Shown: one piece after another, positions 7,564-20,185 of the stretch
Layout of the letters: each line of letters opens with the position of its first letter
Numbering within the stretch: position 1 is the first letter of the stretch
DNA from: Sedimentisphaera cyanobacteriorum
GTDB taxonomy: Bacteria; Planctomycetota; Phycisphaerae; Sedimentisphaerales; Sedimentisphaeraceae
Assembly (NCBI RefSeq): GCF_001997385.1
Contig: NZ_CP019633.1
Span: 2,820,001 to 2,852,000 of the forward strand
Direction: 5' to 3'
Length of the DNA: 32,000 nt
Notes under the pieces: generated by a model
The model's database searches: none
Told to the model about the DNA's origin: nothing
The model's input: the letters and a program-made list of their open reading frames with translations, nothing else
Translations under genes and position numbers: made by a program

Positions 7564-9414
7564 ATGCTGTGTACAGGGAAGTTCAGATTATCTCCAATTG
7601 CTTTTTTGCTTATTTGCGGTTTCGTTTCAGCAAGCCCTGAATTAGCTGGCCCGTTCGACAGCCCCGAAAGGCTTATCCAGTGGCACAAAATCACACTCAC
7701 GCTTGAAGGACCACAGGCAAGCGAAAACGGAACGCCCAATCCTTTCACCGATTACAGAATGTACGTTGTTTTCAAGCACGAAAAAAGCGGGCTGAAATAC
7801 AGGGTGCCCGGGTATTTTGCTGCAGACGGAGACTCCGCAAACTCCTCAGCACAGAACGGTAATAAATGGTGTGCGCACCTGTGTCCGGATAAGCACGGTA
7901 AATGGACATACGAGATTTCATTCCGCAAGGGGAAAAATGCAGCGGTTTCGGAAAAACTGGAAGCTGGCAAACCTCTTGCCCCTTATCACGGAATTTCGGG
8001 AAGATTCAAAGTAGTTCCGTCGGATAAATCTGGCAGAGATTTCCGCGGTAAAGGCCGGCTTGAGTATGTGGGCAAAACATTTCTCAAGTTTGCAGGCTCA
8101 GGAGAATACTTCATCAAACAGGGCACAGACGCTCCCGAAAACTTTCTTGCATACGAAGATTTCGATGGCAATTTCAAAACAGACGGCCGGAAGGATCATT
8201 TGGTAAAAAGCTGGTCTGCCCATGCAAAAGATTGGGACTCGGGCGATCCGTACTGGCAGGACAAAAAGGGAACTGAAATAATCGGAGCGATAAACTATCT
8301 GGCAGGCGAAGGGCTAAACGCATTTTCATTTATTCCGATGAATATCAAAGGCGACGACAGAAACGTTTTTCCATACACCGATTACAACGAACGGTTCAGA
8401 ATGGACTGCTCAAAGCTTGCACAATGGGAGATAGTATTCGAATATGCCGATAAAAAGGGGATGTTCCTGCACTTTAAAACGCAGGAAACAGAGAATGAGC
8501 TGCTCCTTGACGGCGGCGATTTAGGCAAGCAGCGAAAGCTCTACTACCGCGAGCTTATAGCCAGATTCAGCCACCATCTGGCCATCAACTGGAATCTCGG
8601 CGAAGAGGTAAACAATGCTTCCACAAGCCAGAAAAAGAGCTGGGCAGAATACTTCTTCCAGAACGACCCGTACCATCATCACATCGTAATTCATAATATG
8701 GGAAATCCGCACCACGACCTTATGGGAGAAGGTTCGAGGCTTACGGGGATGTCCGTACAAACTAACAAGCCAGATTTCAGAAATGTTTACCCTCGAGTGA
8801 AGAGCTATATACAGAAGGCAAAGAAGGCAGGGAAGGTTTGGGCTGTTGCCTGCGATGAGCCTGGAGATGCCCAGCATGCCTTAAGGCCGGATAATGACGC
8901 GGGCAATTCGCACGATGATGCAAGGCGGAATGCGATTTGGGGCACGTTTATGGCCGGCGGCTGGGGCAATGAATGGTACTTCGGCTACAAACACGCACAT
9001 TCAGACCTCACCTGCGAGGATTTTCGCAGCAGAGACGCCTTTTGGAACTGCTGCCGGATTGCACTCGATTTTTTCAAAGGCGAAAACCGCTCAGGCCGAA
9101 TGGCTCTGCCGGTTGAGAATATGCAGTGCAGGGAGGATTTAGTTTCAAAGCCAAACAGATGCCTTTACGGTAAAGATAATGAAGGGAGAAACTGTCTTGT
9201 CGTGCAGGCATTAACTGAAAAAGAATTTGCAGTAAAAGCGCCGAGTGAAAAACTCTATAAAGCAGGCTGGTTGAACTCTAAAACCGGTGAATGGAAAATA
9301 CTCAGCGATATTGAGAAACATAAAGGCGGGATGCTCAAATTCAAATCTCCTTGGGGCATAGACGGGATCCTGCTTCTTTACGATTGGAGCCGCCGATTCC
9401 CTCAGAAGGAATGA
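7564..9414 (+). CDS. DUF5060-domain protein with a GH5/cellulase-like (DUF4038-type) TIM-barrel and a C-terminal beta-sandwich; secreted putative glycoside hydrolase
   Basis: N-terminal hydrophobic signal. The DUF5060-like block is ITLTLEGPQASENGTPNPFTDYRMYVVFKHEKSGLKYRVPGYFAADGD...NKWCAHLCPDKHGKWTYEISF. It is followed by a barrel-like region: GLNAFSFIPMN, GMFLHFKTQETENE, AINWNLGEE. Confidence 0.75.
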   Translation: MLCTGKFRLSPIAFLLICGFVSASPELAGPFDSPERLIQWHKITLTLEGPQASENGTPNPFTDYRMYVVFKHEKSGLKYRVPGYFAADGDSANSSAQNGNKWCAHLCPDKHGKWTYEISFRKGKNAAVSEKLEAGKPLAPYHGISGRFKVVPSDKSGRDFRGKGRLEYVGKTFLKFAGSGEYFIKQGTDAPENFLAYEDFDGNFKTDGRKDHLVKSWSAHAKDWDSGDPYWQDKKGTEIIGAINYLAGEGLNAFSFIPMNIKGDDRNVFPYTDYNERFRMDCSKLAQWEIVFEYADKKGMFLHFKTQETENELLLDGGDLGKQRKLYYRELIARFSHHLAINWNLGEEVNNASTSQKKSWAEYFFQNDPYHHHIVIHNMGNPHHDLMGEGSRLTGMSVQTNKPDFRNVYPRVKSYIQKAKKAGKVWAVACDEPGDAQHALRPDNDAGNSHDDARRNAIWGTFMAGGWGNEWYFGYKHAHSDLTCEDFRSRDAFWNCCRIALDFFKGENRSGRMALPVENMQCREDLVSKPNRCLYGKDNEGRNCLVVQALTEKEFAVKAPSEKLYKAGWLNSKTGEWKILSDIEKHKGGMLKFKSPWGIDGILLLYDWSRRFPQKE

Positions 9415-9503
9415 TCTTAATATGCCCATTAAGCGGACGCGGAAATAATCCGTAAATTTGCCGATTCATTTTTTCAAACGGCGAGGTCTGCGAAAGGAAC
9501 GAA

Positions 9504-9680
9504 TTTTTTCACAGGATTCACAGGATTTTGACGGGTTTTTTGGGCGGGTAATTTGTTTGAACCTCATGGGATTGGTTTAAACCACGAGGACACCAAGGGC
9601 ACGAAGGTTTGTTATAAATTGTTTTATATAAAGGCTTTACATCATAAAACATCTGTGCCCCTCCGTGTGCCTCCGTGGTT
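9504..9680. repeat. Composite intergenic repeat R1, copy 1 (9-nt tandem units plus a long imperfect hairpin around an AT-rich core)
   Basis: Contains CACAGGATT x2 and GGCGGGTAATTTGTTTGAACC. The arm AACCACGAGGACACCAAGGGCAC (9580-9603) pairs with GTGCCCCTCCGTGTGCCTCCGTGGTT (9655-9680). The core contains GTTATAAATTGTTTTAT and CATAAAACATCTGTGCC. Colinear blocks recur at 17288-17555. Confidence 0.8.
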
Positions 9681-9958
9681 AATATATTTTTTTACCACAA
9701 GAAATAGCGAGCTGCCCCGGCGATGCAAAGAGGACTCCGCTTTGCTGTAATATGAAGAATCTTTTCGCTGTGGAGAGATGATCGCTCGCGCAGGTTCGCC
9801 GCCCCTAGTCGCCAGCAAAACCCGCAGACAAATAATCCTTAGCGAGTTTCAGGGCAATATAGACAGCAATAAATTCTGCAAAGCATTTCAGCGTGATGAT
9901 TTGAATTCTGCCAAAAAATATTGTCGCACACCTTTATGTTTATCTGTTAAATAATAGC

Positions 9959-9986
9959 TTGATAAATATTTTTCATAGCTTATTAT
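9959..9986 (+). promoter_or_regulatory. Sigma-70-like promoter candidate for the NRPS-like gene
   Basis: TTGATA (9959-9964), a 16-nt spacer, then TATTAT (9981-9986), about 80 nt upstream of the ATG at 10067. Confidence 0.35.
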
Positions 9987-10066
9987 GGTTTTTGAAAAAA
10001 CGCAAAAATTAAATTTTCGAAATTCATTAATACGCTTTCAAACAATTGGCAAAAACGGAGTTTGTA

Positions 10067-12253
10067 ATGACAAATTTTGAAAGCTATGCAGAAGCACAGC
10101 AATCCTCACAAAAGTCAACCCTAAACGTTACCGAAAGGGTAACGGAAGCAGCAGGGCTGTTCCCTGATAAAACAGCAGTGAGCGACGAGAATCATTCGAT
10201 TATATTTTCAGAGCTGATATTGATTTCAGATGTCCTTGCTGAAAAGCTCCTTGCAAAAAACATCCAGCTTGAGCAGAAAGTTGGGATAAGCTGCGGAAAA
10301 AGCGTTGAGGCTGTCGTCTCTGCGTTTGCTGTGATGAAGGTTGGTGCGGCTTATGTGCCCCTTGATGCAGATTATCCGGACGAAAGGCTTATATACATAG
10401 CAGAAAATTCCTGTATGAATATTATATTCTGCGTTAAAGGCAATGCGCCAATGTGGGCTGAGGGGTTTGAAGTTATAGAGATAGATATTGAACAAATCCT
10501 CAAATCCGAACCTCCTGAAGAGCATATATCATTTAACTGTTCCCCAACAAGCCTTGCCTATTCAATGTACACCTCCGGCTCGACAGGCACACCCAAAGGT
10601 GTGGAAATAGAGCACAGAAATCTTAATCAGGAGATAGACTGGAATATAGAATTCCACAAACTTACCAGCAAAGACGTGGCAAGTCTTGTTTCGAGCTTCA
10701 GCTTTGATGTTTCAGTGTCTGAGATATGGAGCACTTTATCAGTTGGGGCGAGGCTTTGCATTGCTCCGCCTTCAGCAGTTTACGTGCCTCAAAATATGAT
10801 CGACTGGATGTGCCGAAAAGGTATAACCGTTGGCCTCGTTGGAACTCCCGTAGCAGAAAAGATTATTCGTATGCAGTGGCCTGATGAGTGTTCGCTTCGT
10901 ACTATGCGAACCATGGGCGACAGGCTCAGAGTAAGGCCTCTGCCGAATCTGCCGTTCAATCTGTACAATGAGTACGGCCCTACAGAATGCACAGTTACTG
11001 TTACAGCAGGGCTGGTCAGTTCGGAGGACGACGGCAAATACCCTCACATCGGAAGCGAAGTGGGCGACTGCGTGATACATATACTTGATGATGAGTTAAA
11101 CCCCGTAAAAGAAGGCGAAGAAGGCGAGCTCTGCATCAGCGGGGACTGCGTTGCAAGAGGGTATGCAGGTATGCCGGAGAAAACGGCCGAGGTATTCGTT
11201 CCCGACCCAATCATAAAGGGCAATCGGATGTACCGAACCGGCGATGTTGCAAAAAGACGGCCGGACGGGAATATCGATTATGTGGGAAGGCGGGATTTGC
11301 AGGTTCAGATCCGTGGGTTCAGGGTGGAGCTCAGCGAGATTGAAAAATTTGTGCTCGACAGCGAAAATGTAAACTCTGCTGCTGTGGTTGCTTCCGAAGA
11401 AGAGGATGGGATCAGGCTTTACTGCTTTGCTGAGCCGAAGGCAAAGCCGTTCAGCGTTGAATCACTTACTGATTTTCTCGCCTCAAAACTGCCCACCTAC
11501 ATGAGACCGAGCGGGTATTACGTTTTGGAGGAGATGCCGCTGAATGTAAACGGAAAAATTGACAGAAAGAAACTCTTCGCAGATGTTGTAGAAAACCGAA
11601 TTGAGGCGCATTCCAGAACAGATCAGATTGTAATGCCGCGAAACCCAATGGAAGAAGTGCTTTGGGAAACGTGGAAAAAAATCCTCCGAAGAGAAGACTT
11701 CGGAATATATGAAAACTTCTTCGACCTCGGCGGACATTCATTGATGGCTATTAAGATGGAAACGCTCCTAAGCAAACGCGGGCTTGCGCTCGACTTTGAA
11801 AAGGTGATTAAATATCCGGTGATCGCACAGCTGGCCGCCTTTCTGGAATTCAAGGTTGACGGGGCAGAAAATTCCGACGAAAAGTGCATTGTGTCGCTCA
11901 ACAAAGGCGAGAAAGGCAGGCCGCCGATTTATTTCCTGCATTCCACCAGCGGCGACATTCTGGCGTATGCAAATATAGTGCACGAACTCGGAGAAGACCA
12001 GCCCTGCTTCGGTTTTCAGTCTATTGGGCTTTGGCATATTGATCAGGCAGACAAAACAATCGAGCAGATGGCTGCCAGATATGTTAAGCTGCTCAATGAT
12101 ATCCAGCCGGAAGGAAAGTTTGCGCTTGTGGGGTGGTGCTTCGGCGGCTGGATCGCCTACGAGATGGCAAGAATATTCAAGAAGCAAGGCAGAAACGTGA
12201 GCATTTTAGCCCTCATAGACGCTCCCGCAAAACTTGCCGGCGGGAAAAAATGA
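10067..12253 (+). CDS. Stand-alone NRPS-like enzyme: adenylation domain, thiolation (PCP) domain, and the N-terminal two-thirds of a thioesterase domain (nucleophile and Asp)
   Basis: A-domain cores: MKVGAAYVPLD (A2), YTSGSTGTPKGV (A3), FDVSVSE (A4), NEYGPTE (A5), GELCISGDCVARGY (A6), YRTGD (A7), GRRDLQVQIRGFRVELSEIE (A8), NGKIDRKKL (A10). Carrier motif is FFDLGGHSLMAI (Ser codon 11738-11740). TE motif is GWCFGG (Cys codon 12137-12139), with Asp 27 residues later in LIDAP (12218-12220). No condensation domain is present. ATG 10067 with GGAG at 10056-10059 is preferred over the TTG at 10046. Confidence 0.9.
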   Translation: MTNFESYAEAQQSSQKSTLNVTERVTEAAGLFPDKTAVSDENHSIIFSELILISDVLAEKLLAKNIQLEQKVGISCGKSVEAVVSAFAVMKVGAAYVPLDADYPDERLIYIAENSCMNIIFCVKGNAPMWAEGFEVIEIDIEQILKSEPPEEHISFNCSPTSLAYSMYTSGSTGTPKGVEIEHRNLNQEIDWNIEFHKLTSKDVASLVSSFSFDVSVSEIWSTLSVGARLCIAPPSAVYVPQNMIDWMCRKGITVGLVGTPVAEKIIRMQWPDECSLRTMRTMGDRLRVRPLPNLPFNLYNEYGPTECTVTVTAGLVSSEDDGKYPHIGSEVGDCVIHILDDELNPVKEGEEGELCISGDCVARGYAGMPEKTAEVFVPDPIIKGNRMYRTGDVAKRRPDGNIDYVGRRDLQVQIRGFRVELSEIEKFVLDSENVNSAAVVASEEEDGIRLYCFAEPKAKPFSVESLTDFLASKLPTYMRPSGYYVLEEMPLNVNGKIDRKKLFADVVENRIEAHSRTDQIVMPRNPMEEVLWETWKKILRREDFGIYENFFDLGGHSLMAIKMETLLSKRGLALDFEKVIKYPVIAQLAAFLEFKVDGAENSDEKCIVSLNKGEKGRPPIYFLHSTSGDILAYANIVHELGEDQPCFGFQSIGLWHIDQADKTIEQMAARYVKLLNDIQPEGKFALVGWCFGGWIAYEMARIFKKQGRNVSILALIDAPAKLAGGKK

Positions 12254-12672
12254 GGCAGCATCTTACGGTTATAAAAAATCTTATCGCCCTCGGGCCAGCC
12301 GAGATGAGCAAAGAAATCATAGAGAGACTGAAAACTAAGGAATCAGACCTTGCAGATGATGTGATTGGCGCCCATTTCAACGAGCAGGACGAAGAATTCA
12401 AAAACAGATATGTTTCAAATCGAGCGGAAGTGTACGACTGTAATCTATCCGCCGCTTATGAGTATAAATCTGGAACTTATAAAGGCCAAGCCGTGCTGTT
12501 TAAGGCTATGGGCAGCGAACTTTGGAAACTCAGAGGCCCGAAACTCGGCTGGGAATTTGTGGTTGATGATTTGAAGCTCGAAGCTATACCGGGCGAACAT
12601 AAAGACCTGATGAAGGAAAATACGGAAATCGCTGTAAGACTCAGGAAAATGGTTGATCAGATTAAGGGCTGA
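12250..12672 (+). CDS. C-terminal third of the thioesterase domain (lid region plus catalytic His) as a separate ORF in the -1 frame
   Basis: ATG 12250-12252 overlaps the upstream TGA 12251-12253 (ATGA), immediately after the A6 run at 12245-12250. It contains the IPGEHKDLM His motif typical of type I TE domains (His codon 12598-12600). The portion of track ORF 12133..12672 upstream of 12250 is out-of-frame overlap with the first ORF. Confidence 0.7.
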   Translation: MRQHLTVIKNLIALGPAEMSKEIIERLKTKESDLADDVIGAHFNEQDEEFKNRYVSNRAEVYDCNLSAAYEYKSGTYKGQAVLFKAMGSELWKLRGPKLGWEFVVDDLKLEAIPGEHKDLMKENTEIAVRLRKMVDQIKG

Positions 12673-12705
12673 GAGCTCCTTCACGCAGCGTCCGAGGCCG
12701 GGTGA

Positions 12706-12872
12706 GTATGCACGGTTTGGCTCCTTATGCGAAAAAAGCCATCGCCACACAGCGGAGCAGCTCTTAGCTGCCCGCCAAAATCCTAATGGAAAAAGCAGCG
12801 TGGGTGAGAAGCGTACGCCTTGCGGCGTTACGCTTTGCGTCCCAGCATCTTCGCAAATCCAGTACTTCTGAT
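12706..12872. repeat. Element E, copy A (161-nt core, GTATGC on the left side only)
   Basis: GTATGC is at 12706-12711. The core at 12712-12872 is nearly identical to copies B and C except for a ~5-nt insertion near the right end. The left flank 12673-12705 is an RHS remnant (reverse strand LGRCVKEL) that abuts the TE stop codon. The right flank is unrelated sequence. Confidence 0.8.
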
Positions 12873-12933
12873 TTCGAATAAACTGCTATGGCTTAAAACC
12901 ACTAACAGTGTTTATTTTGATTCTCATTTGGTT

Positions 12934-13743
12934 TTATCTCAGCAATTTGCGGTTCGCTTCTTCTACCAGCAGTTTCATTTGCTTTATTGCAATCTCGTTT
13001 AGTCTTTCAAGTCTTTCATTTTGCGGCAGGCGTTCAGATATAAACAGAGCATTAAGATTTTCTAAATTTGCCAAACATACCAGCTGAATCACATTAGCAT
13101 TATCACGGATATCTCCCTTCTCATCCGGGTTGGCTTTCTGCCATTGTGCGGAGGTCATTCCGAAAAGGGCAACATTTAAAACATCTGCTTCGCTTGCATA
13201 TAGAAAAGAGGCCTGTTTCTTATCAATCTGCTGCGGTATCAGGTGCTCCTTAATCGCATCAGTATGTATGCGGTAGTTGATTTTAGTTAGGCTTCGTTTA
13301 ACCGACCAATCCAGCTCTTGCGTCTGGTTTTCTTTGAGCCGCTGAAATTCCTTCAGCAGATAAAATTTGAATTCTACCGACACCCAGGACGCAAATTCTA
13401 ACGCTATATCTGCGTGTGCAAATGTGCCGCCATATCTGCCCGGTTTGGACTGAAGGCCTATCGCATTTGTTGAATCTATCCATTTCTTGGGCGAAAGCAC
13501 GAAATGATTATAGCCGGCCTGATTCCTAAACTGGTCGAATTCGACCAGTTTGAAGTTTTGATTGTGGATTCGCTCCCACAGCCCAAGAAGCTCAATCGTA
13601 TTTTTGCTCCTCATCCAGTTTTTAATGATATCGGCTGGCGAGTCGGGGTTTTTGTATTTTGCAATATCTGTTATCGAGATGTAGTTCTCACGGTCAACAT
13701 TGTAAAGCATTATTTCACTGCCGGATACATTGATTTTCTTCAT
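12934..13743 (-). CDS. KilA-N domain-containing protein (DNA-binding, phage/mobile-element associated family)
   Basis: The translation closely matches my memory of the ~270-aa KilA-N family: ISITDIAKYKNPDSPADIIKNWMRSKNTIELLGLWE, GRYGGTFAHADIALEFASWVSVEFKFYLLKEFQRLKE, INYRIHTDAIKEHLIP. ATG is preceded by GGAGA. The gene is visibly AT-richer than the flanking genes. Confidence 0.85.
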   Translation of the reverse strand: MKKINVSGSEIMLYNVDRENYISITDIAKYKNPDSPADIIKNWMRSKNTIELLGLWERIHNQNFKLVEFDQFRNQAGYNHFVLSPKKWIDSTNAIGLQSKPGRYGGTFAHADIALEFASWVSVEFKFYLLKEFQRLKENQTQELDWSVKRSLTKINYRIHTDAIKEHLIPQQIDKKQASFLYASEADVLNVALFGMTSAQWQKANPDEKGDIRDNANVIQLVCLANLENLNALFISERLPQNERLERLNEIAIKQMKLLVEEANRKLLR

Positions 13744-13850
13744 AAATCATTCTCCATGCTTTTATTTTAAGCACGCTGAAACCTGCTATGAACCTCGTTC
13801 AAAAACCCGCTCAATATATAATATCGAAAAACAAAACGCAATGCAAAAAC

Positions 13851-14205
13851 ACCGCAATCAGCTCGCAAAACCCATTGCCGTAAACGTATTCATCCCCGCC
13901 GGCGAGCGTTTCGCCCGAATCGGTCGTGGTGAGCTACTTCACGCATCGTCCGAGGCCGGGTGAGTATGCACGGTTTGGCTCCTTATGCGAAAAAAGCCAT
14001 CGCCACACAGCGGAGCAGCTCTTAGCTGCCCGCCATAATCCTAATGGAAAAAGCAGCGTGGGTGAGAAGCGTACGCCTTGCGGCGTTACGCTGTGCGTCC
14101 CAGCATCTTCGCAAATCCGACTGATGTATGCCGGCGAGCCGGCCAAGCTTCCCACAATCCTGCGCCCCAACGCATCATATTTGTACTGAATCACTCATCC
14201 TCCAG
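13851..14205 (-). pseudogene. Degenerate RHS/YD-repeat fragment interrupted by element E copy B
   Basis: The reverse strand reads SGG*VIQYKYDALGRRIVGSLAGSPAY-[E]-SPGLGRCVK*LTTTDSGETLAGGDEYVYGNGFCELIAV. It has two in-frame stops and no start. It is homologous to the uninterrupted repeat at 16229-16390. Confidence 0.65.
13964..14131. repeat. Element E, copy B (156-nt core flanked by GTATGC direct repeats)
   Basis: GTATGC is at 13964-13969 and 14126-14131. The core is 13970-14125. Hairpins lie at 14069-14091 (GCGTACGCC-TTGC-GGCGtTACGC, a GCAA loop on the reverse strand) and 14012-14034. The terminal stem is CGGTTTG (13971-13977) with CAAAtCCG (14112-14119). Confidence 0.85.
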
Positions 14206-14412
14206 AAGATGCATTTTACTCTCTTTTATACATATCTCAACAGCTGCAATTTCATAATGAATATTAACAGCTGCTCCAATTTTTTCTTTCTTTACTCCAT
14301 TGCCTGCCGGGTTTCCAAATAAGTTCAAAACTTTCATTTTCTGACAAAGCTCTGAGCACCGGAAGAATAAAATCTTTTATTTTGTCTGCTGCTGATGGAA
14401 AAGATATCTCTT

Positions 14413-15204
14413 TTAGGCTATTTTTTGAGATAAAGCATCCCACTGGCTCTGTTTCAATTTGTCTTCATAGAATTCTCTGGTAAAAGATGTAGGCAGTTCT
14501 TCGGGGATTGCTGTACCTCTTCGCCTAAATGTGTTTTGAATCGCCTGAGCTAACAGTTTGCCGTCGAATTCAAATTTTCCGGCAAGCTGATACACATCGT
14601 AAAAATCTTTCATACGGCTGTTCGCAAACCCCAGAGTTACCATTGCTTCAATCTTTTCAGCTACTGCCAGCTCATACGAGTATGTCCTTAGCTTTGGTGC
14701 CGGCATATTAAGTATTGCAGGGAAAGCGGCCTGCTTTTCAGGCGGATAAACCTCATCACCAAACCCAATGTCTATCTGCATAAATTCTCCCGTACGCCCT
14801 ATTCTGTATTCAAGCTTAATCCTTACGCCGTCATACATATTATCTTCCCGAATTGCCTGCCCTCTCACAGATTCCGCTTTATATGTGATTCCGTCCTGCA
14901 CATCAGTTTCGATCCGGCAAATATTTCTGAAAACCTCCTCCAGCCGGGAAACATCAGGATTGCCAAACCCAAGCAAATCAAGATCTCTCGTTGGCCGGTA
15001 AGGATTATTCCCCCATACCCGAAAAAGCTGCGCTCCCTTGAGAACAAAATCGTTGGCATATTGAGAATTGCTCAATCGATAAAGAAAACGCTCTATTGCA
15101 TAATTTGTCAGCGTAAGGCCGCGATCTTCCCTTTGCATTTGCGAATAATTTTTTAGACGCTGTAAAATGGAATCAGCTATGTTTTTCTTTTCCCGATTGC
15201 TCAT
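14413..15204 (-). CDS. abiEii: AbiEii/AbiGii-family nucleotidyltransferase toxin (DUF1814), type IV toxin-antitoxin / abortive infection
   Basis: Typical AbiEii N-terminus: SILQRLKNYSQMQREDRGLTLTNYAIERFLYRLSNSQYANDFVLKGAQLF...RPTRDLDLLGFG. The ATG at 15204 overlaps the upstream stop as ATGA. Confidence 0.9.
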   Translation of the reverse strand: MSNREKKNIADSILQRLKNYSQMQREDRGLTLTNYAIERFLYRLSNSQYANDFVLKGAQLFRVWGNNPYRPTRDLDLLGFGNPDVSRLEEVFRNICRIETDVQDGITYKAESVRGQAIREDNMYDGVRIKLEYRIGRTGEFMQIDIGFGDEVYPPEKQAAFPAILNMPAPKLRTYSYELAVAEKIEAMVTLGFANSRMKDFYDVYQLAGKFEFDGKLLAQAIQNTFRRRGTAIPEELPTSFTREFYEDKLKQSQWDALSQKIA

Positions 15205-15809
15205 AATGCAGTAATGCTTTCAAGATATGGCTGAATCACATTGCTCACCCTGCACACTTTGGCGTATTTCCAAAGCTCATCCATTGTAAAATGCTTTTCC
15301 CGCCAGCCTTCTCTAAGGGCTTCCAGAGCTGTATCCAGCCCAATCTTGTTGCGATATTTAAAACAATCCGCCACCGTCTTTGCCGGCGAATAAACTCGCA
15401 CCTTAAGCTGATCTATCCGTTTCTCCTGTATTCCTTCGGTAAATGCCCTTTTCGAAAACCGCACATATCTCACCTTTGCAGAAGCTTTAATTTCGGGTTT
15501 GCGGGAACGATTTTCTATCGCAATCCAGACCTCAAATGGATTCTGTGTTGTAAATCCGTGAAGACGCAGGGCAGAAAGAAGGCAAATTACCCCTTTAGGC
15601 ACCTGTTTCGAAGCCTCAGCAATGCTCTGCATCGGCGAGTAATCATTGTTGGGCAGACTGTAGAGGCCGCGGGAAACCCTCTCCACAGTTCCTTGTACCG
15701 TAAGCTTTCGAAGATACTCCTTCGAGATGCCAAGCTCAACGATTTCTCCTGTTTTGAGCATTCCATACTGTCTGAGATGTTCAATTAGTTTTTGAGCCTT
15801 TATTCCCAT
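15201..15809 (-). CDS. abiEi: AbiEi-family antitoxin / transcriptional regulator (winged-helix N-terminus)
   Basis: Motifs: MLKTGEIVELGISKEYLRKLTVQGTVERVSRGLYSL, ICLLSALRLHGFTTQNPFEVWIAI, VYSPAKTVADCFKYRNKIGLDTALEALRE, IQPYLESI. Start chosen at ATG 15809 (MGIKAQKL...). The track start at 15860 lies inside the promoter palindrome. Confidence 0.85.
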   Translation of the reverse strand: MGIKAQKLIEHLRQYGMLKTGEIVELGISKEYLRKLTVQGTVERVSRGLYSLPNNDYSPMQSIAEASKQVPKGVICLLSALRLHGFTTQNPFEVWIAIENRSRKPEIKASAKVRYVRFSKRAFTEGIQEKRIDQLKVRVYSPAKTVADCFKYRNKIGLDTALEALREGWREKHFTMDELWKYAKVCRVSNVIQPYLESITAL

Positions 15810-15821
15810 TTGCAATACCTT

Positions 15822-15869
15822 GTTGACTAAATGTCCATATATATTAACATATATCAACACTTAGTCAAC
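15822..15869 (-). promoter_or_regulatory. Promoter embedded in a 9-bp inverted repeat; candidate AbiEi operator
   Basis: GTTGACTAA (15822-15830) and TTAGTCAAC (15861-15869) are perfect inverted repeats. On the reverse strand they frame TTGACT, 16 nt, then TAATAT, directly upstream of the abiEi ATG. Confidence 0.5.
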
Positions 15870-16545
15870 TTGATTTTGACATCCCCGCCGCGAGCGTTTC
15901 GCCCGAATCGGTCGTGGTGAGCTCCTTCACGCAGCGGCCGAGGCCGGGCGAGTATGCGCGATTTGGCTCCTTTTGCGAAAAAAGCCATCGCCACACAGCG
16001 GAGCAGCTCTTAGCTGCCCGCCAAAATCCTAATGGAAAAAGCAGCGTGGGTGAGAAGCGTACGCCTTGCGGCGTTACGCTGTGCGTCCCAGCATCTTCGC
16101 AAATCCGGCTTATGTATGCTGGCGAGCCGGCCAAGCATACCACACTGCCCAGCGCGTCGGTGAGGGCGTATTCCACGCCGCCAGAAGCATCGCAAACCGA
16201 AATCAGCTCAGCGAAACCATTGCCGTAAACGTATTCATCCCCGGCGGCGAGCGTTTCGCCCGAATCGGTGGTGGTTAGCTCCTTCACGCAGCGGCCGAGC
16301 GGGTCGTACAGGCAGAACGTTTCCTCGCCGCCCGAGCTTCTCACAACCCTGCGCCCCAACGCATGGTATTTGTATTCGATCACTTGTCCTCCCGATTCAA
16401 CTGAGACCAACGCACCTCCGGCAGAATATTCATACTTATTCCCGCCGTCATAAATCATATTGCCTGCATTATCATACTGGATTTCGGAATCGCTTTCAAG
16501 AGAATTCAACTCGGCGATTTCTGAAACGAGAGGGTTTTTAGCTGA
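15865..16545 (-). pseudogene. Orphan RHS/YD-repeat fragment (no N-terminus, no toxin tip) carrying element E copy C in frame
   Basis: The reverse strand reads YDNAGNMIYDGGNKYEYSAGG...VIEYKYHALGRRVVRSSGGEETFCLYDPLGRCVKELTTTDSGETLAAGDEYVYGNGFAELISV...YALTDALGSVVCLAGSPAY-[E]-SPGLGRCVKELTTTDSGETLAAG, then MSKSS*. The frame opens right after a stop near 16546 and has no credible start. The LGRCVKELTTTDSGETLAAG segment occurs twice. Confidence 0.65.
15952..16119. repeat. Element E, copy C (156-nt core flanked by GTATGC direct repeats)
   Basis: GTATGC is at 15952-15957 and 16114-16119. The core 15958-16113 is exactly 156 nt and differs from copy B by about six substitutions by eye. Confidence 0.85.
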
Positions 16546-16661
16546 TTAGATTTTCAGCCACTGAGAAACGCTAAGAAGCACTAAGGGGATAATTTTAGAC
16601 AGAATCTTTTTAGTTCCAGGCAATGATAAGGGGAAAGTTTTTCTCCTGCAGCTGCCGCTGC

Positions 16662-16698
16662 CTCTCCGCCTGCGGCGGACAGGCTCAATGTTAAACAT
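16662..16698. repeat. 37-nt direct repeat, left copy (contains the TCCGCC-TGC-GGCGGA hairpin)
   Basis: CTCTCCGCCTGCGGCGGACAGGCTCAATGTTAAACAT recurs at 17107-17144 with one extra T. Confidence 0.8.
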
Positions 16699-16703
16699 CC
16701 CCC

Positions 16704-16831
16704 GTACTACAGCGGAGTCCGCCTGCGGCGGACCCGCTAGGCATTCTTTTAGAATAGATTTTTCGCTTAACGCCGGCTCTTCACGTTTCGCTATCCTAGC
16801 GGGTCCGCCACGGCGAACACCGCTGTACGAC
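16704..16831. repeat. R2 hairpin element: ~37-nt imperfect inverted repeats around a ~53-nt spacer (MITE/REP-like)
   Basis: The 5' arm is GTACTACAGCGGAGTCCGCCTGCGGCGGACCCGCTAGG (16704-16741). The 3' arm is CCTAGCGGGTCCGCCACGGCGAACACCGCTGTACGAC (16795-16831). The spacer contains CTCTTCACGTTTCGCT, which is shared with the element at 30455-30569. Confidence 0.75.
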
Positions 16832-17106
16832 GCTGCTTTATTAAGCAGCGAACCGCTGGCTCAGTCCGTAAATGCTGCGGCCAGCCTATAGTAGATACTG
16901 GCTGTCCGCTTATTTCACTGCCTGCGGCGGGACGGAATAAGTGGGCAGCAAACAGAGCGGAAACGGAGGCGAGATTTTTTAGACGGGATTTATAGGAGTA
17001 ACATGAAAAATATTTGGTACTGAAAAGTTGGATAGAAGTTTTTTCAGCCGCTGATCTGCTCTGATTTTTCACTAATATATTATATCTTCTCCGATAACTC
17101 CGCTAA

Positions 17107-17144
17107 CTCTCCGCCTGCGGCGGACAGGCTCAATGTTTAACATT
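17107..17144. repeat. 37-nt direct repeat, right copy
   Basis: CTCTCCGCCTGCGGCGGACAGGCTCAATGTTTAACAT matches 16662-16698. Confidence 0.8.
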
Positions 17145-17287
17145 CCTTTTAAATCGGTGGTTAAATTATTCTTAATTGAGGCGGTCTTGCTCATCACCCG
17201 CCGGAGAGCTGCCCCGCAATTTGATATTCTCCGCCAATGCGGGGGCTGAAGTTTTTACACAGAGATATCGGAGGAAGCGGAGGGGAG

Positions 17288-17555
17288 TTTTTTTTAACAG
17301 GATTAACAGGATTGACAGGATAAATATTAAATAAGGAAAAGGCGGAGAGAAATCTTTTGGCGGGTAATTTGCTTGAACCGCGAAAGACGCGAAGGGCGCG
17401 AAGATTTTGTTATAAATTGTTTTATTGCAATCGCTTACATTCATAAAAACATCTGTGCCATCCGTGCCATCTGTGGATAAAAATTTTACTAAAAAAATAT
17501 CCCCTTCGTGTGTTTCGCGGGCTTCGCGGTAAAAAAACATAAAATCTGTGGATAA
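17288..17555. repeat. Composite intergenic repeat R1, copy 2 (same orientation as copy 1)
   Basis: Contains AACAGGATT/AACAGGATT/GACAGGAT and GGCGGGTAATTTGCTTGAACC. The arm AACCGCGAAAGACGCGAAGGGCGCGAAG (17376-17404) pairs with CCTTCGTGTGTTTCGCGGGCTTCGCGGT (about 17503-17530). The core contains GTTATAAATTGTTTTAT and CATAAAAACATCTGTGCC. Track ORF 17172..17579 is a translation of this repeat. Confidence 0.8.
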
Positions 17556-17705
17556 TAAACTTCGATTCGGAATAAACACGAGTCATCGTTTATGCGCTAA
17601 GGCCATCAATTAAAAACAAATTCTTATAGGGTGCTTCGCTATGATGTGAATTATATGATTCGGCTAAAACTGCGAAGTCAGCAGCATATAACTCAAGCAG
17701 ATTAT

Positions 17706-19088: not shown

Positions 19089-19634
19089 TCACAGAAAAGC
19101 GATGCCTGCCAAGGCTCCGAGGAGAATGAAAATCGCAGGGTGGAGCTTTCGGAAGAATCTCAGCAGTGCAAACAGGGCGAAGAGGATTATGCAGCGGAAG
19201 TTTAGGATATCCCCGGATTGTGCTATTGGTCCGGCCAGCGCATTTGAAGCGATAAAGAAAACCGCTGCACCGATAAGCCCTATCACTGCCGGCCTTATTC
19301 GCTTCATTACTGCATTTACATATCTGTTGTCAGAATAGCTTGAGATTGAGCGTATAATTAGGATACTGATTATGTATGCAGGGGTTAAAAGTCCTGTCGA
19401 TGCTATAACCGCTCCCGGGAACGAGCCCACGGTATAGCCGATGTATGAGGCTAAATTTATTCCTATAGGGCCGGGAGTGGATTGGGAAACAGCTATCATA
19501 TCAACGAATTCGTGCTGGCTTATCCAGCCGCCTTCCACGAGAAAATCCTGAAGAATCGGCAGAGATGCAAGCCCGCCCCCGAAGGTGAAAAGCCCTGTTA
19601 TGAAAAATATAGTATAAAGGTTCAGATAAATCAT
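19089..19634 (-). CDS. Chromate transporter (CHR) family, short-chain, second half-protein
   Basis: Motifs GGGLASLPILQDFLVEGGWISQHEFVDMIAVSQSTPGPIGINLASYIGY. Multiple TM segments. The ATG overlaps the upstream stop as ATGA at 19631-19634. Confidence 0.85.
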   Translation of the reverse strand: MIYLNLYTIFFITGLFTFGGGLASLPILQDFLVEGGWISQHEFVDMIAVSQSTPGPIGINLASYIGYTVGSFPGAVIASTGLLTPAYIISILIIRSISSYSDNRYVNAVMKRIRPAVIGLIGAAVFFIASNALAGPIAQSGDILNFRCIILFALFALLRFFRKLHPAIFILLGALAGIAFL

Positions 19635-20185
19635 TCTCCGCCTTTCTGCCTTTCCCGCACTAACGCATAAAAGATAACCGCCGCCACAAACAGCACCGGC
19701 GAGATGATCTGCAGTGTTACAGCAGTAAAACCTATCGCGGCCAGCAGGCCGCCGGTATAATCCTTTATTGCTCTTCTGCCCATATTAACGAGCGTGTATA
19801 TTATCATTACAGCAACAGCAATACGCACTCCTGCAAACGCCTTCTGCACGTATATATAGTCTTGAAAGCCCGATAGAAACGCAGCTATCAGCGAGATGAT
19901 TATCACAGAAGGCCCAACTACGCCTATGCCTGCGAAGATTGTGCCGAGAACGCCTGCCTGACGGTATCCCACAAACGCCGCCACATTTATTGCGATAACG
20001 CCCGGGGTTGCCTGCCCGATTGCGTAGTAGTCGAGCATTTCCTCCTCGCTTACCCAGCCCCGCTTTCCAACTACCTCACGGCTGAGCATCGGCAGCATTG
20101 CATATCCCCCGCCCACAGTAAAGAGTCCCACACGGGCGAAAGAGATTAGAAGTTTGCCGAGTATATTCTTTTCCAAGGCATTCAC
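19631..20185 (-). CDS. Chromate transporter (CHR) family, short-chain, first half-protein
   Basis: Motifs GGGYAMLPMLSREVVGKRGWVSEEEMLDYYAIGQATPGVIAINVAAFVGY. A GTG start at 20185 sits one base after the ABC-F stop. Confidence 0.85.
   Translation of the reverse strand: MNALEKNILGKLLISFARVGLFTVGGGYAMLPMLSREVVGKRGWVSEEEMLDYYAIGQATPGVIAINVAAFVGYRQAGVLGTIFAGIGVVGPSVIIISLIAAFLSGFQDYIYVQKAFAGVRIAVAVMIIYTLVNMGRRAIKDYTGGLLAAIGFTAVTLQIISPVLFVAAVIFYALVRERQKGGE

What the first reader, a model, noticed from the sequence alone, without database searches (positions are those of the whole stretch)
12131..12672. Thioesterase domain split between catalytic Asp and His by a frame change at an A6 run (ATGA overlap)
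**Seen.**
- ORF1 ends ...ILALIDAPAKLAGGKK* with GGG AAA AAA TGA (stop 12251-12253).
- An ATG at 12250-12252 in the -1 frame opens a 140-aa ORF that carries the rest of the TE fold, including IPGEHKDLM (His codon 12598-12600).
- The nucleophile (12137-12139) and the Asp (12218-12220, 27 residues later, the usual TE spacing) are in ORF1.
- One extra A in the run 12245-12250 would give a single continuous A-T-TE protein reading ...GGKKMRQHL...

**Known.** The TE catalytic triad needs all three residues. Homopolymer indels are common sequencing errors. Lys-tRNA slippage on A-runs next to a stop codon is a known route to -1 frameshifting.

**Inference.** There are four alternatives:
1. assembly error
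2. a recent inactivating or phase-variable indel
3. P-site -1 slippage on AAA AAA before UGA, where re-pairing is perfect and the next codon is then AUG
4. a genuinely split, translationally coupled TE

The site is not a canonical X XXY YYZ heptamer in the zero frame.
Basis: partly seen in the sequence, partly recalled or inferred. Interest (0 to 1): 0.65.

Follow-up and report, generated by a model that had tools for sequence, protein, structure and literature searches.

The report
One-base deletion breaks an NRPS thioesterase
A small peptide-synthetase gene is cut in two by the loss of a single base inside its release (thioesterase) domain; every relative has the gene in one piece, so this is an ordinary recent gene-breaking mutation or a sequencing slip, not a special decoding trick.

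Summary
ORF1 (10067-12253) encodes adenylation, carrier and the N-half of a thioesterase (TE). It ends GGG AAA AAA TGA. A 140-aa ORF in the -1 frame (12250-12672) carries the TE lid, the last two strands and the catalytic His. Adding one base gives an 868-aa protein that matches the Pfam TE profile in one stretch.

The closest orthologue (Sedimentisphaera salicampi, 82% identity) is a single ungapped 868-aa ORF. It reads AAG AAA CTG CGT at the junction and has no A-run. More distant relatives (48% and 36%), and a tandem paralogue of the former, are also continuous.

No stand-alone homologue of the C-half turned up among 1.84 billion representative proteins. There is no canonical heptamer, no downstream RNA structure and no Rfam match. 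dN/dS in ORF2 (0.14) is like that upstream (0.11), with no further lesions. The break is therefore young, or exists only in the assembly.

The relatives have Leu (CTG, TTG, CTA) at the break. The lost base may therefore be a C or T rather than an A of the run, and the deletion itself would then have created both the TGA and the overlapping ATG.

Verdict: unprogrammed one-base deletion. Real young pseudogene about 0.6, assembly error about 0.3, slippage or split enzyme below 0.1. Low interest. One side note: the TE nucleophile is a rare Cys (GWCFGG), as in AB3403.

The parts
9959..9986 (+). Promoter-like site (TTGATA, 16-nt spacer, TATTAT) about 80 nt upstream of the ORF1 start
   Evidence: 10 of 12 matches. 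This is a consensus match only; the number of sites in the region is not above the shuffled expectation.
10067..12253 (+). ORF1, 728 aa: adenylation domain (about 10145-11557), carrier domain (about 11666-11845) and the N-half of the thioesterase (from about 11924). It ends at a premature TGA.
   Evidence: Matches: PF00501 at 3.9e-63, PF13193, PF00550, PF00975 profile positions 2-105 only, and TIGR01733 at 353 bits (cut-off 317). Core motifs are intact: YTSGSTGTPKG, NEYGPTE, YRTGD, GRRDLQVQIRGFRVE, NGKIDRK, GGHS.
12137..12139 (+). Codon of the TE nucleophile. It is Cys (TGC) in GWCFGG, residue 691 of the repaired protein.
   Evidence: GWCFGG is shared with P0002, P0003, P0006 and PDB 4zxh.
12218..12220 (+). 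Codon of the catalytic Asp (residue 718, LALIDAPA), just after strand beta6
   Evidence: It lies 27 residues after the nucleophile and aligns with the ID motif in 4zxh and in Pks13 TE.
12245..12253 (+). Break point: A6 run (12245-12250), ORF1 stop TGA (12251-12253) and overlapping ORF2 ATG (12250-12252). One base is missing relative to the orthologue.
   Evidence: window GGG AAA AAA -TG AGG against S. salicampi TCT AAG AAA CTG CGT; relatives have Leu CTG, TTG or CTA at this codon.
12250..12672 (+). ORF2, 140 aa, -1 frame: TE lid helices, strands beta7 and beta8, and the catalytic His
   Evidence: It is 78% identical to residues 730-868 of the orthologue, with omega 0.14. Its only full-length matches elsewhere lie at the C-termini of long synthetases.
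12598..12600 (+). Codon of the catalytic His (residue 845, IPGEHKDLM)
   Evidence: H845 nearly invariant; aligned with PGDH of 4zxh.

Best explanation
A single base has recently been lost from an otherwise intact, selectively maintained stand-alone NRPS gene with adenylation, carrier and thioesterase domains (A-T-TE). The base lost is either one A of an A7 run or, more parsimoniously, the first base of a Leu codon (C/T)TG that followed AAA AAA.

The loss shifts the reading frame 11 codons after the catalytic Asp, at the start of the TE lid. The main product therefore stops at a TGA that the deletion itself created. That product lacks the lid, strands beta7 and beta8, and the catalytic His. An enzyme in that state could load its carrier domain but could not release product, so the gene is a young pseudogene.

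The ATG of the 140-aa downstream ORF is likewise made by the deletion and has no designed role.

**Shown:** the one-base gap, the single-ORF orthologues, the position of the break in the fold, and purifying selection on both parts.

**Inferred:** that the deletion exists in the organism and not only in the assembly, and that the truncated product is inactive.
For: -: the DNA alignment shows exactly one missing base relative to S. salicampi (AAG AAA CTG CGT), and the orthologue has no A-run.
- the orthologue is 868 aa, the same length as the repaired window protein. The two align without gaps at 82% identity.
- P0003, P0006 and a tandem paralogue on L014 all have a continuous TE.
- the repaired protein matches PF00975 in a single stretch.
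- omega is 0.108 (0.081-0.140) upstream and 0.143 (0.077-0.250) in ORF2. There are no further stops or indels, so the lesion is young.
- the relatives have Leu codons at the break. One deletion therefore explains both the TGA and the ATG.
- 22 other homopolymers of 6 nt or more inside confident coding regions of this window keep their frame. The assembly is therefore not generally indel-prone, which favours a real mutation over an error.
- the gene is an accessory one, not syntenic with the orthologue and next to a defence island. Such a gene is plausibly dispensable.
- and PMC11298585: the break lies in the loop after beta6, at the start of the lid.
Against: - No reads or second assembly of this organism could be examined. 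Two metagenome scans and the 5.8-billion-protein search found no conspecific copy. A consensus error therefore cannot be excluded.
- The break lies next to a homopolymer, which is where consensus errors concentrate.
- ORF2 shows no decay at all. This fits an assembly artefact, or a lesion that is rescued in some way, as well as it fits a very young mutation.
Confidence: 0.58

Rival explanations
1. Assembly or consensus error. The organism has an intact 868-aa gene, with either A7 giving Lys-Lys-Met or A6 plus C/T giving Lys-Lys-Leu, and one base was dropped next to or within the homopolymer during sequencing or polishing.
For: - The break is at an A6 run.
- ORF2 is under the same purifying selection as the rest and has no second lesion.
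- Every relative is intact.
- The source is a single 2.95-Mb contig, typical of long-read assemblies, whose residual errors are homopolymer indels (general knowledge).
Against: - 22 other homopolymers of 6 nt or more in confident coding regions of the window are all in frame, and no other broken gene was seen in about 24.6 kb of coding sequence.
- If the true codon is CTG or TTG as in the relatives, the dropped base is not part of the homopolymer.
Confidence: 0.3
2. The deletion is real, but it is partly bypassed. Either P-site tRNA-Lys slips -1 on AAA AAA while the ribosome waits at UGA, or RNA polymerase adds an A on the run. Either route would yield some full-length A-T-TE reading ...GGKKMRQH...
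For: - Re-pairing of tRNA-Lys on AAAAAA is perfect for a P-site slip, and a stop codon in the A site slows decoding (established knowledge of shifty sites).
- ORF2 is still intact.
Against: - The orthologue needs no frameshift and has no slippery run, so nothing is conserved.
- The site is G AAA AAA, not X XXY YYZ.
- The RNA downstream folds no better than shuffled sequence (z -0.62 and +0.28).
- There is no Rfam match.
- Six A's are far shorter than the tracts known to give useful transcriptional slippage (general knowledge).
- Any bypass would be incidental and of low efficiency.
Confidence: 0.07
3. A genuinely split thioesterase. ORF1 and ORF2 would be translated separately, coupled through the ATGA overlap, and the two pieces would assemble into an active TE.
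For: - The ATG overlaps the stop (ATGA), a common coupling arrangement.
- The break lies in a low-confidence loop between beta6 and the lid. That is a position where a fold might tolerate a nick.
Against: - No relative is split.
- Among 1.84 billion representatives, the only 140-aa stand-alone protein covering the whole of ORF2 is the window's own. All other full-coverage matches lie at the C-termini of proteins of 597-2946 aa.
- The upstream sequence GGCGGGAAAAAATG has no clear ribosome-binding site.
- The ATGA is explained by the deletion itself.
Confidence: 0.03

Closest known systems
Frameshifted pseudogene, or apparent frameshift, of the kind flagged in bacterial genome annotation
   Same: A single one-base indel splits a gene whose orthologues are single ORFs. 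Repairing one base restores a full-length, ungapped alignment.
   Different: Nothing distinguishes it from that class. The lesion is very young, with no decay downstream, so it cannot be told apart from a consensus error without the reads.
AB3403 (ABBFA_003403) of Acinetobacter baumannii, a C-A-T-TE NRPS, PDB 4zxh and 4zxi
   Same: It is the best solved-structure match for the TE (E 6.9e-19). It has the same GWCFGG nucleophile elbow with Cys, and its Asp follows beta6. PMC11298585 notes that AB3403 is the only other structurally characterised NRPS TE with this combination.
   Different: AB3403 has an N-terminal condensation domain and a continuous TE. The window gene has no C domain, and its TE is interrupted. 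The products of both are unknown.
Programmed -1 frameshift sites such as E. coli dnaX (A AAA AAG) and the IS element orfAB sites
   Same: A lysine-codon A-run, with the downstream part of the protein in the -1 frame.
   Different: There is no canonical heptamer and no stimulatory structure. An upstream Shine-Dalgarno-like stimulator was not specifically scanned for. The site is not conserved in orthologues, which are unshifted, and the upstream product on its own would be a crippled enzyme, not a functional isoform.
Cys-dependent NRPS thioesterases: ObiF1, SulM, MacB-TE
   Same: They use a Cys in place of Ser as the acyl-enzyme nucleophile (PMC11298585, PMC13288461).
   Different: In ObiF1 and SulM the catalytic Asp follows beta7. 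Here it follows beta6, as in most TEs. No link to beta-lactone, beta-lactam or macrocycle chemistry was tested.

Membership tests
Type I NRPS/PKS thioesterase domain (Pfam PF00975, alpha/beta-hydrolase) | Profile match across the whole domain above the curated cut-off | tested here: met
   the repaired protein scores 74.9 bits (cut-off 26.4), residues 620-856 against profile positions 2-219 of 226. The N-half alone scores 68.3 bits.
Type I NRPS/PKS thioesterase domain (Pfam PF00975, alpha/beta-hydrolase) | Catalytic triad: nucleophile in a GxS/CxG elbow after beta5, Asp after beta6, His after beta8 | tested here: met
   Cys691 (GWCFGG), Asp718 and His845 align with the relatives and with 4zxh. 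Their positions relative to the strands come from the model of the orthologue.
Type I NRPS/PKS thioesterase domain (Pfam PF00975, alpha/beta-hydrolase) | The domain is encoded as one continuous polypeptide | tested here: not met
   Frame break after residue 728. All relatives are continuous.
Programmed -1 ribosomal frameshifting | Slippery heptamer X XXY YYZ in the zero frame | tested here: not met
   The zero frame reads GGG AAA AAA TGA. The heptamer is G AAA AAA, so only the hexamer is slippery.
Programmed -1 ribosomal frameshifting | Stimulatory RNA structure a few nucleotides downstream, or another stimulator | tested here: not met
   folds of 12251-12330 and 12254-12300 give z-scores of -0.62 and +0.28 against shuffles; no Rfam match in 9300-13200.
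Programmed -1 ribosomal frameshifting | The frameshift and the slip site are conserved in orthologues | tested here: not met
   S. salicampi reads AAG AAA CTG in one frame. P0003 and its paralogue also read through in one frame, with no A-run.
Programmed -1 ribosomal frameshifting | A trans-frame protein is produced | not testable with these tools
   This needs proteomics or a reporter assay.
Phase-variable homopolymer (contingency) locus | A long tract whose length varies between isolates or reads | tested here: inconclusive
   The tract is only 6 nt and is absent from the orthologue. No second isolate or read set was available.
Naturally split, translationally coupled gene pair | The split is conserved in relatives, or stand-alone homologues of the halves exist | tested here: not met
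   relatives are continuous; apart from the window's own, no stand-alone protein covers all of ORF2.
Frameshifted pseudogene or apparent frameshift | Orthologues are single ORFs, and one indel restores a full-length collinear alignment | tested here: met
   adding one base gives 868 aa and an ungapped alignment at 82% identity.
Frameshifted pseudogene or apparent frameshift | The indel is confirmed in the organism's DNA | not testable with these tools
   No reads are available, and the window's own genome record could not be retrieved.

The most novel reading that the evidence does not exclude
The deletion is real, and the organism still makes some full-length A-T-TE. This would happen through -1 P-site slippage of tRNA-Lys on AAA AAA stalled at UGA, or through transcriptional A-insertion. 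It would be a newly arisen, non-conserved example of a frameshift mutation rescued by recoding in a planctomycete secondary-metabolite gene.
Probability: 0.06. Interest if true: 0.4.

Novelty: already known. Interest (0 to 1): 0.1.

Why it matters
It matters little beyond annotation. The two ORFs should be annotated as one frameshifted A-T-TE gene (pseudo, or to be corrected), not as a truncated NRPS plus a hypothetical protein. Anyone mining this genome for biosynthetic genes should know that the release domain is broken as assembled.

The one point of modest wider interest is separate from the split. This small family of stand-alone A-T-TE enzymes in Sedimentisphaerales carries the rare Cys-nucleophile TE of the AB3403 type, and the chemistry of that type is still unknown.

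Tried and rejected
1. Looked for an independent copy from the same species, to settle error against mutation.
   - The 5.8-billion-protein search returned only the window's own 728-aa product at about 100% identity.
   - The exact look-up of that product found nothing.
   - The genome-contig scan returned only distant relatives, and neither the source genome nor S. salicampi.
   - Two metagenome pattern scans returned nothing: one across the junction with a variable gap, one of a stretch of ORF2 conserved between the two species.
2. Looked for frameshift stimulators. RNA folds were no better than shuffles and there was no Rfam match.
3. Looked for a promoter for ORF2. There are only weak consensus matches, at the chance level.
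4. Looked for a natural split-TE family using ORF2 alone against 1.84 billion representatives. None was found. The short hits cover only query residues from about 44-62 onward (one 231-aa protein covers 8-136, at 84-214 of its own length), and none starts at the split point.
5. Tried to read the genome paper for the sequencing method (Spring et al. 2018, doi 10.1111/1462-2920.14253). It is not held. PMC11266412 gave no relevant detail.
6. Checked whether the first ORF of the window (GH88 + DUF4861) was a second frameshift. It is not. The frame is open to the window edge.
7. NCBIfam gave no specific family beyond the generic adenylation domain. No substrate or product prediction was attempted.
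Full report
**1. The observation**

The sequence reads ...GCC GGC GGG AAA AAA TGA GGC AGC....
- ORF1 runs from the ATG at 10067 (an in-frame TTG lies at 10046) to the TGA at 12251-12253. It ends ...ILALIDAPAKLAGGKK*.
- The A6 run is 12245-12250.
- An ATG at 12250-12252 in the -1 frame opens a 140-aa ORF to 12672. This ORF contains IPGEHKDLM.
- Pfam finds AMP-binding, AMP-binding_C, PP-binding and the first 105 positions of the Thioesterase profile in ORF1. It finds nothing in ORF2 alone.
- With one base added after the run, the 868-aa product matches the Thioesterase profile as a single stretch. Residues 620-856 match profile positions 2-219 of 226, E 1.4e-20.

The split of one domain over two frames is therefore real in this sequence. 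The nucleophile codon 12137-12139 is TGC, so the elbow is GWCFGG with a Cys. The Asp (12218-12220) lies 27 residues later, and the His is at 12598-12600.

**2. What the relatives show**

A search with the repaired protein returned three relevant groups of hits.
- The window's own 728-aa product, from a 2.95-Mb contig.
- An 868-aa protein of Sedimentisphaera salicampi (P0002), at 82% identity and 100% coverage.
- Single-ORF A-T-TE proteins at 48% (P0003, 857 aa) and 36% (P0006, 870 aa).

P0002 and the repaired window protein have the same length and align without any gap.

At the DNA level the window lacks exactly one base. The window reads GGG AAA AAA -TG AGG CAG, and S. salicampi reads TCT AAG AAA CTG CGT CAG. 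The orthologue therefore has neither a frame change nor an A-run.

The contig that carries P0003 holds two tandem A-T-TE paralogues followed by a phosphopantetheinyl transferase. Both TE domains are continuous.

At the codon where the window breaks, the three nearest sequences have Leu (CTG, TTG, CTA). The simplest history is loss of the first base of a (C/T)TG codon that followed AAA AAA. That single event creates both the TGA stop and the overlapping ATG. An A7-to-A6 change would need an additional Leu-to-Met substitution. It cannot be excluded, because Met occurs at this position in a distant relative.

**3. Age of the lesion**

Nei-Gojobori estimates against S. salicampi:

| Region | Codons | dN/dS | Bootstrap interval | dS |
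|---|---|---|---|---|
| Upstream of the break | 728 | 0.108 | 0.081-0.140 | 0.97 |
| ORF2 | 139 | 0.143 | 0.077-0.250 | 0.85 |

Sliding 139-codon blocks upstream range from 0.04 to 0.23. ORF2 has no further stop or indel. The C-half has therefore been under purifying selection for nearly all of the divergence. The break is either very recent or not present in the organism.

**4. Where the break falls in the fold**

An AlphaFold2 model of the orthologue (same numbering, mean pLDDT 78.9) places the elements as follows.
- Strand beta6: residues 711-717.
- Low-confidence loop: the segment below pLDDT 50 is 723-731.
- Lid helices: 728-799.
- Strands beta7 and beta8: 805-814 and 833-841.
- The catalytic His: residue 845.

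The break after residue 728 separates two parts. One holds the core sheet with the nucleophile and the Asp. The other holds the lid, the last two strands and the His. This agrees with the general description of NRPS TE domains in PMC11298585, where the lid lies between beta6 and beta7 and the Asp usually follows beta6. ORF1 alone would therefore give a protein that can adenylate and load its carrier domain but cannot catalyse release (inference).

**5. Tests of the programmed readings**

*-1 frameshifting*
- The zero-frame heptamer is G AAA AAA, not X XXY YYZ.
- The RNA downstream folds no better than shuffled sequence (z -0.62 and +0.28).
- Rfam has no match in 9300-13200.
- The site is not conserved.
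- A low-level P-site slip of tRNA-Lys at AAA AAA UGA remains chemically possible. If it occurs, it would be incidental.

*Split enzyme*
- ORF2 was searched against 1.84 billion representative proteins.
- The only stand-alone 140-aa protein covering all of ORF2 was the window's own.
- All other full-coverage matches lie at the C-termini of proteins of 597-2946 aa.
- There is no clear ribosome-binding site before the ATG, and no promoter signal above chance.

*Phase variation*
- Six A's make a short tract, and the orthologue lacks it.

**6. Error or mutation?**

This cannot be settled without reads. No second copy of the species was found in the protein collection, the genome collection or two metagenome scans.

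In favour of a real mutation:
- Within the window, 23 homopolymers of 6 nt or more lie in confident coding regions, and only this one coincides with a broken frame.
- No other broken gene was seen in about 24.6 kb of coding sequence. The assembly is therefore not generally indel-prone.
- The gene is accessory. Homology to the S. salicampi locus is limited to 9995-12682, and the flanks differ.
- It sits between CAZyme genes and a small defence island, made up of a KilA-N protein matching PADLOC PDC-S22, AbiEi/AbiEii and an RHS fragment.

On these grounds I put a real, young inactivating deletion at about 0.6 and a consensus error at about 0.3. Either way the feature is not programmed (about 0.9).

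**7. Comparison with what is known, and verdict**

This is an ordinary frameshifted gene, or an apparent frameshift. It fails the defining tests both for programmed frameshifting and for a conserved split gene.

The TE itself belongs to PF00975. It is closest to the TE of A. baumannii AB3403 (PDB 4zxh, E 6.9e-19). The two share GWCFGG with a Cys nucleophile and an Asp after beta6 (PMC11298585). Cys-dependent TEs are described as rare (PMC11298585, PMC13288461).

That side observation is the only mildly interesting point. Interest 0.1; novelty: already known.

Noticed in passing
window 12131-12148 (GWCFGG); also P0002, P0003, P0006, L014:3-1439: The TE nucleophile is Cys, not Ser. It is conserved in the close A-T-TE relatives and in AB3403 (PDB 4zxh), which is the best solved-structure match. 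PMC11298585 notes that AB3403 is the only other structurally characterised NRPS TE with a Cys nucleophile and the Asp after beta6. The product and chemistry of this family are unknown.
   Followed up: partly
window 9995-12682 against L001 9929-12617: The A-T-TE gene is not syntenic with its 82% orthologue. In S. salicampi it lies between a TonB/ExbB/ExbD/TPR cluster and an amino-acid permease. In the window it follows a 650-bp AT-rich non-coding stretch (9415-10066) and precedes a defence island. Homology stops about 70 nt upstream of the gene and about 10 nt downstream of it, which suggests a mobile or repeatedly relocated single-gene cassette.
   Followed up: partly
L014:3-4694: On the contig that carries the 48% relative, two A-T-TE paralogues lie in tandem and are followed by a 4'-phosphopantetheinyl transferase. 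No PPTase lies next to the window gene or next to the S. salicampi gene.
   Followed up: partly
window 12934-15860 (- strand): This is a small defence island. It holds a KilA-N domain protein (12934-13743) that matches the PADLOC candidate system PDC-S22 at E 3.5e-126. Next to it is a complete AbiEii/AbiEi toxin-antitoxin pair (14413-15204 and 15201-15860, overlapping by 4 nt).
   Followed up: partly
window 15865-17579 (- strand): A 213-aa ORF with a single RHS repeat match has no long RHS core upstream of it. Beside it are two small ORFs (16791-17072 and 17172-17579) that match no Pfam or PADLOC family. This looks like an orphan RHS tip/immunity cassette remnant.
   Followed up: no
window 19089-20185 (- strand): Two half-size chromate-transporter genes (19631-20185 and 19089-19634) overlap by ATGA. 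Each matches the PF02417 profile nearly end to end, so this is a natural two-gene arrangement. It makes a useful contrast with the broken TE, where each half matches only part of the profile.
   Followed up: partly
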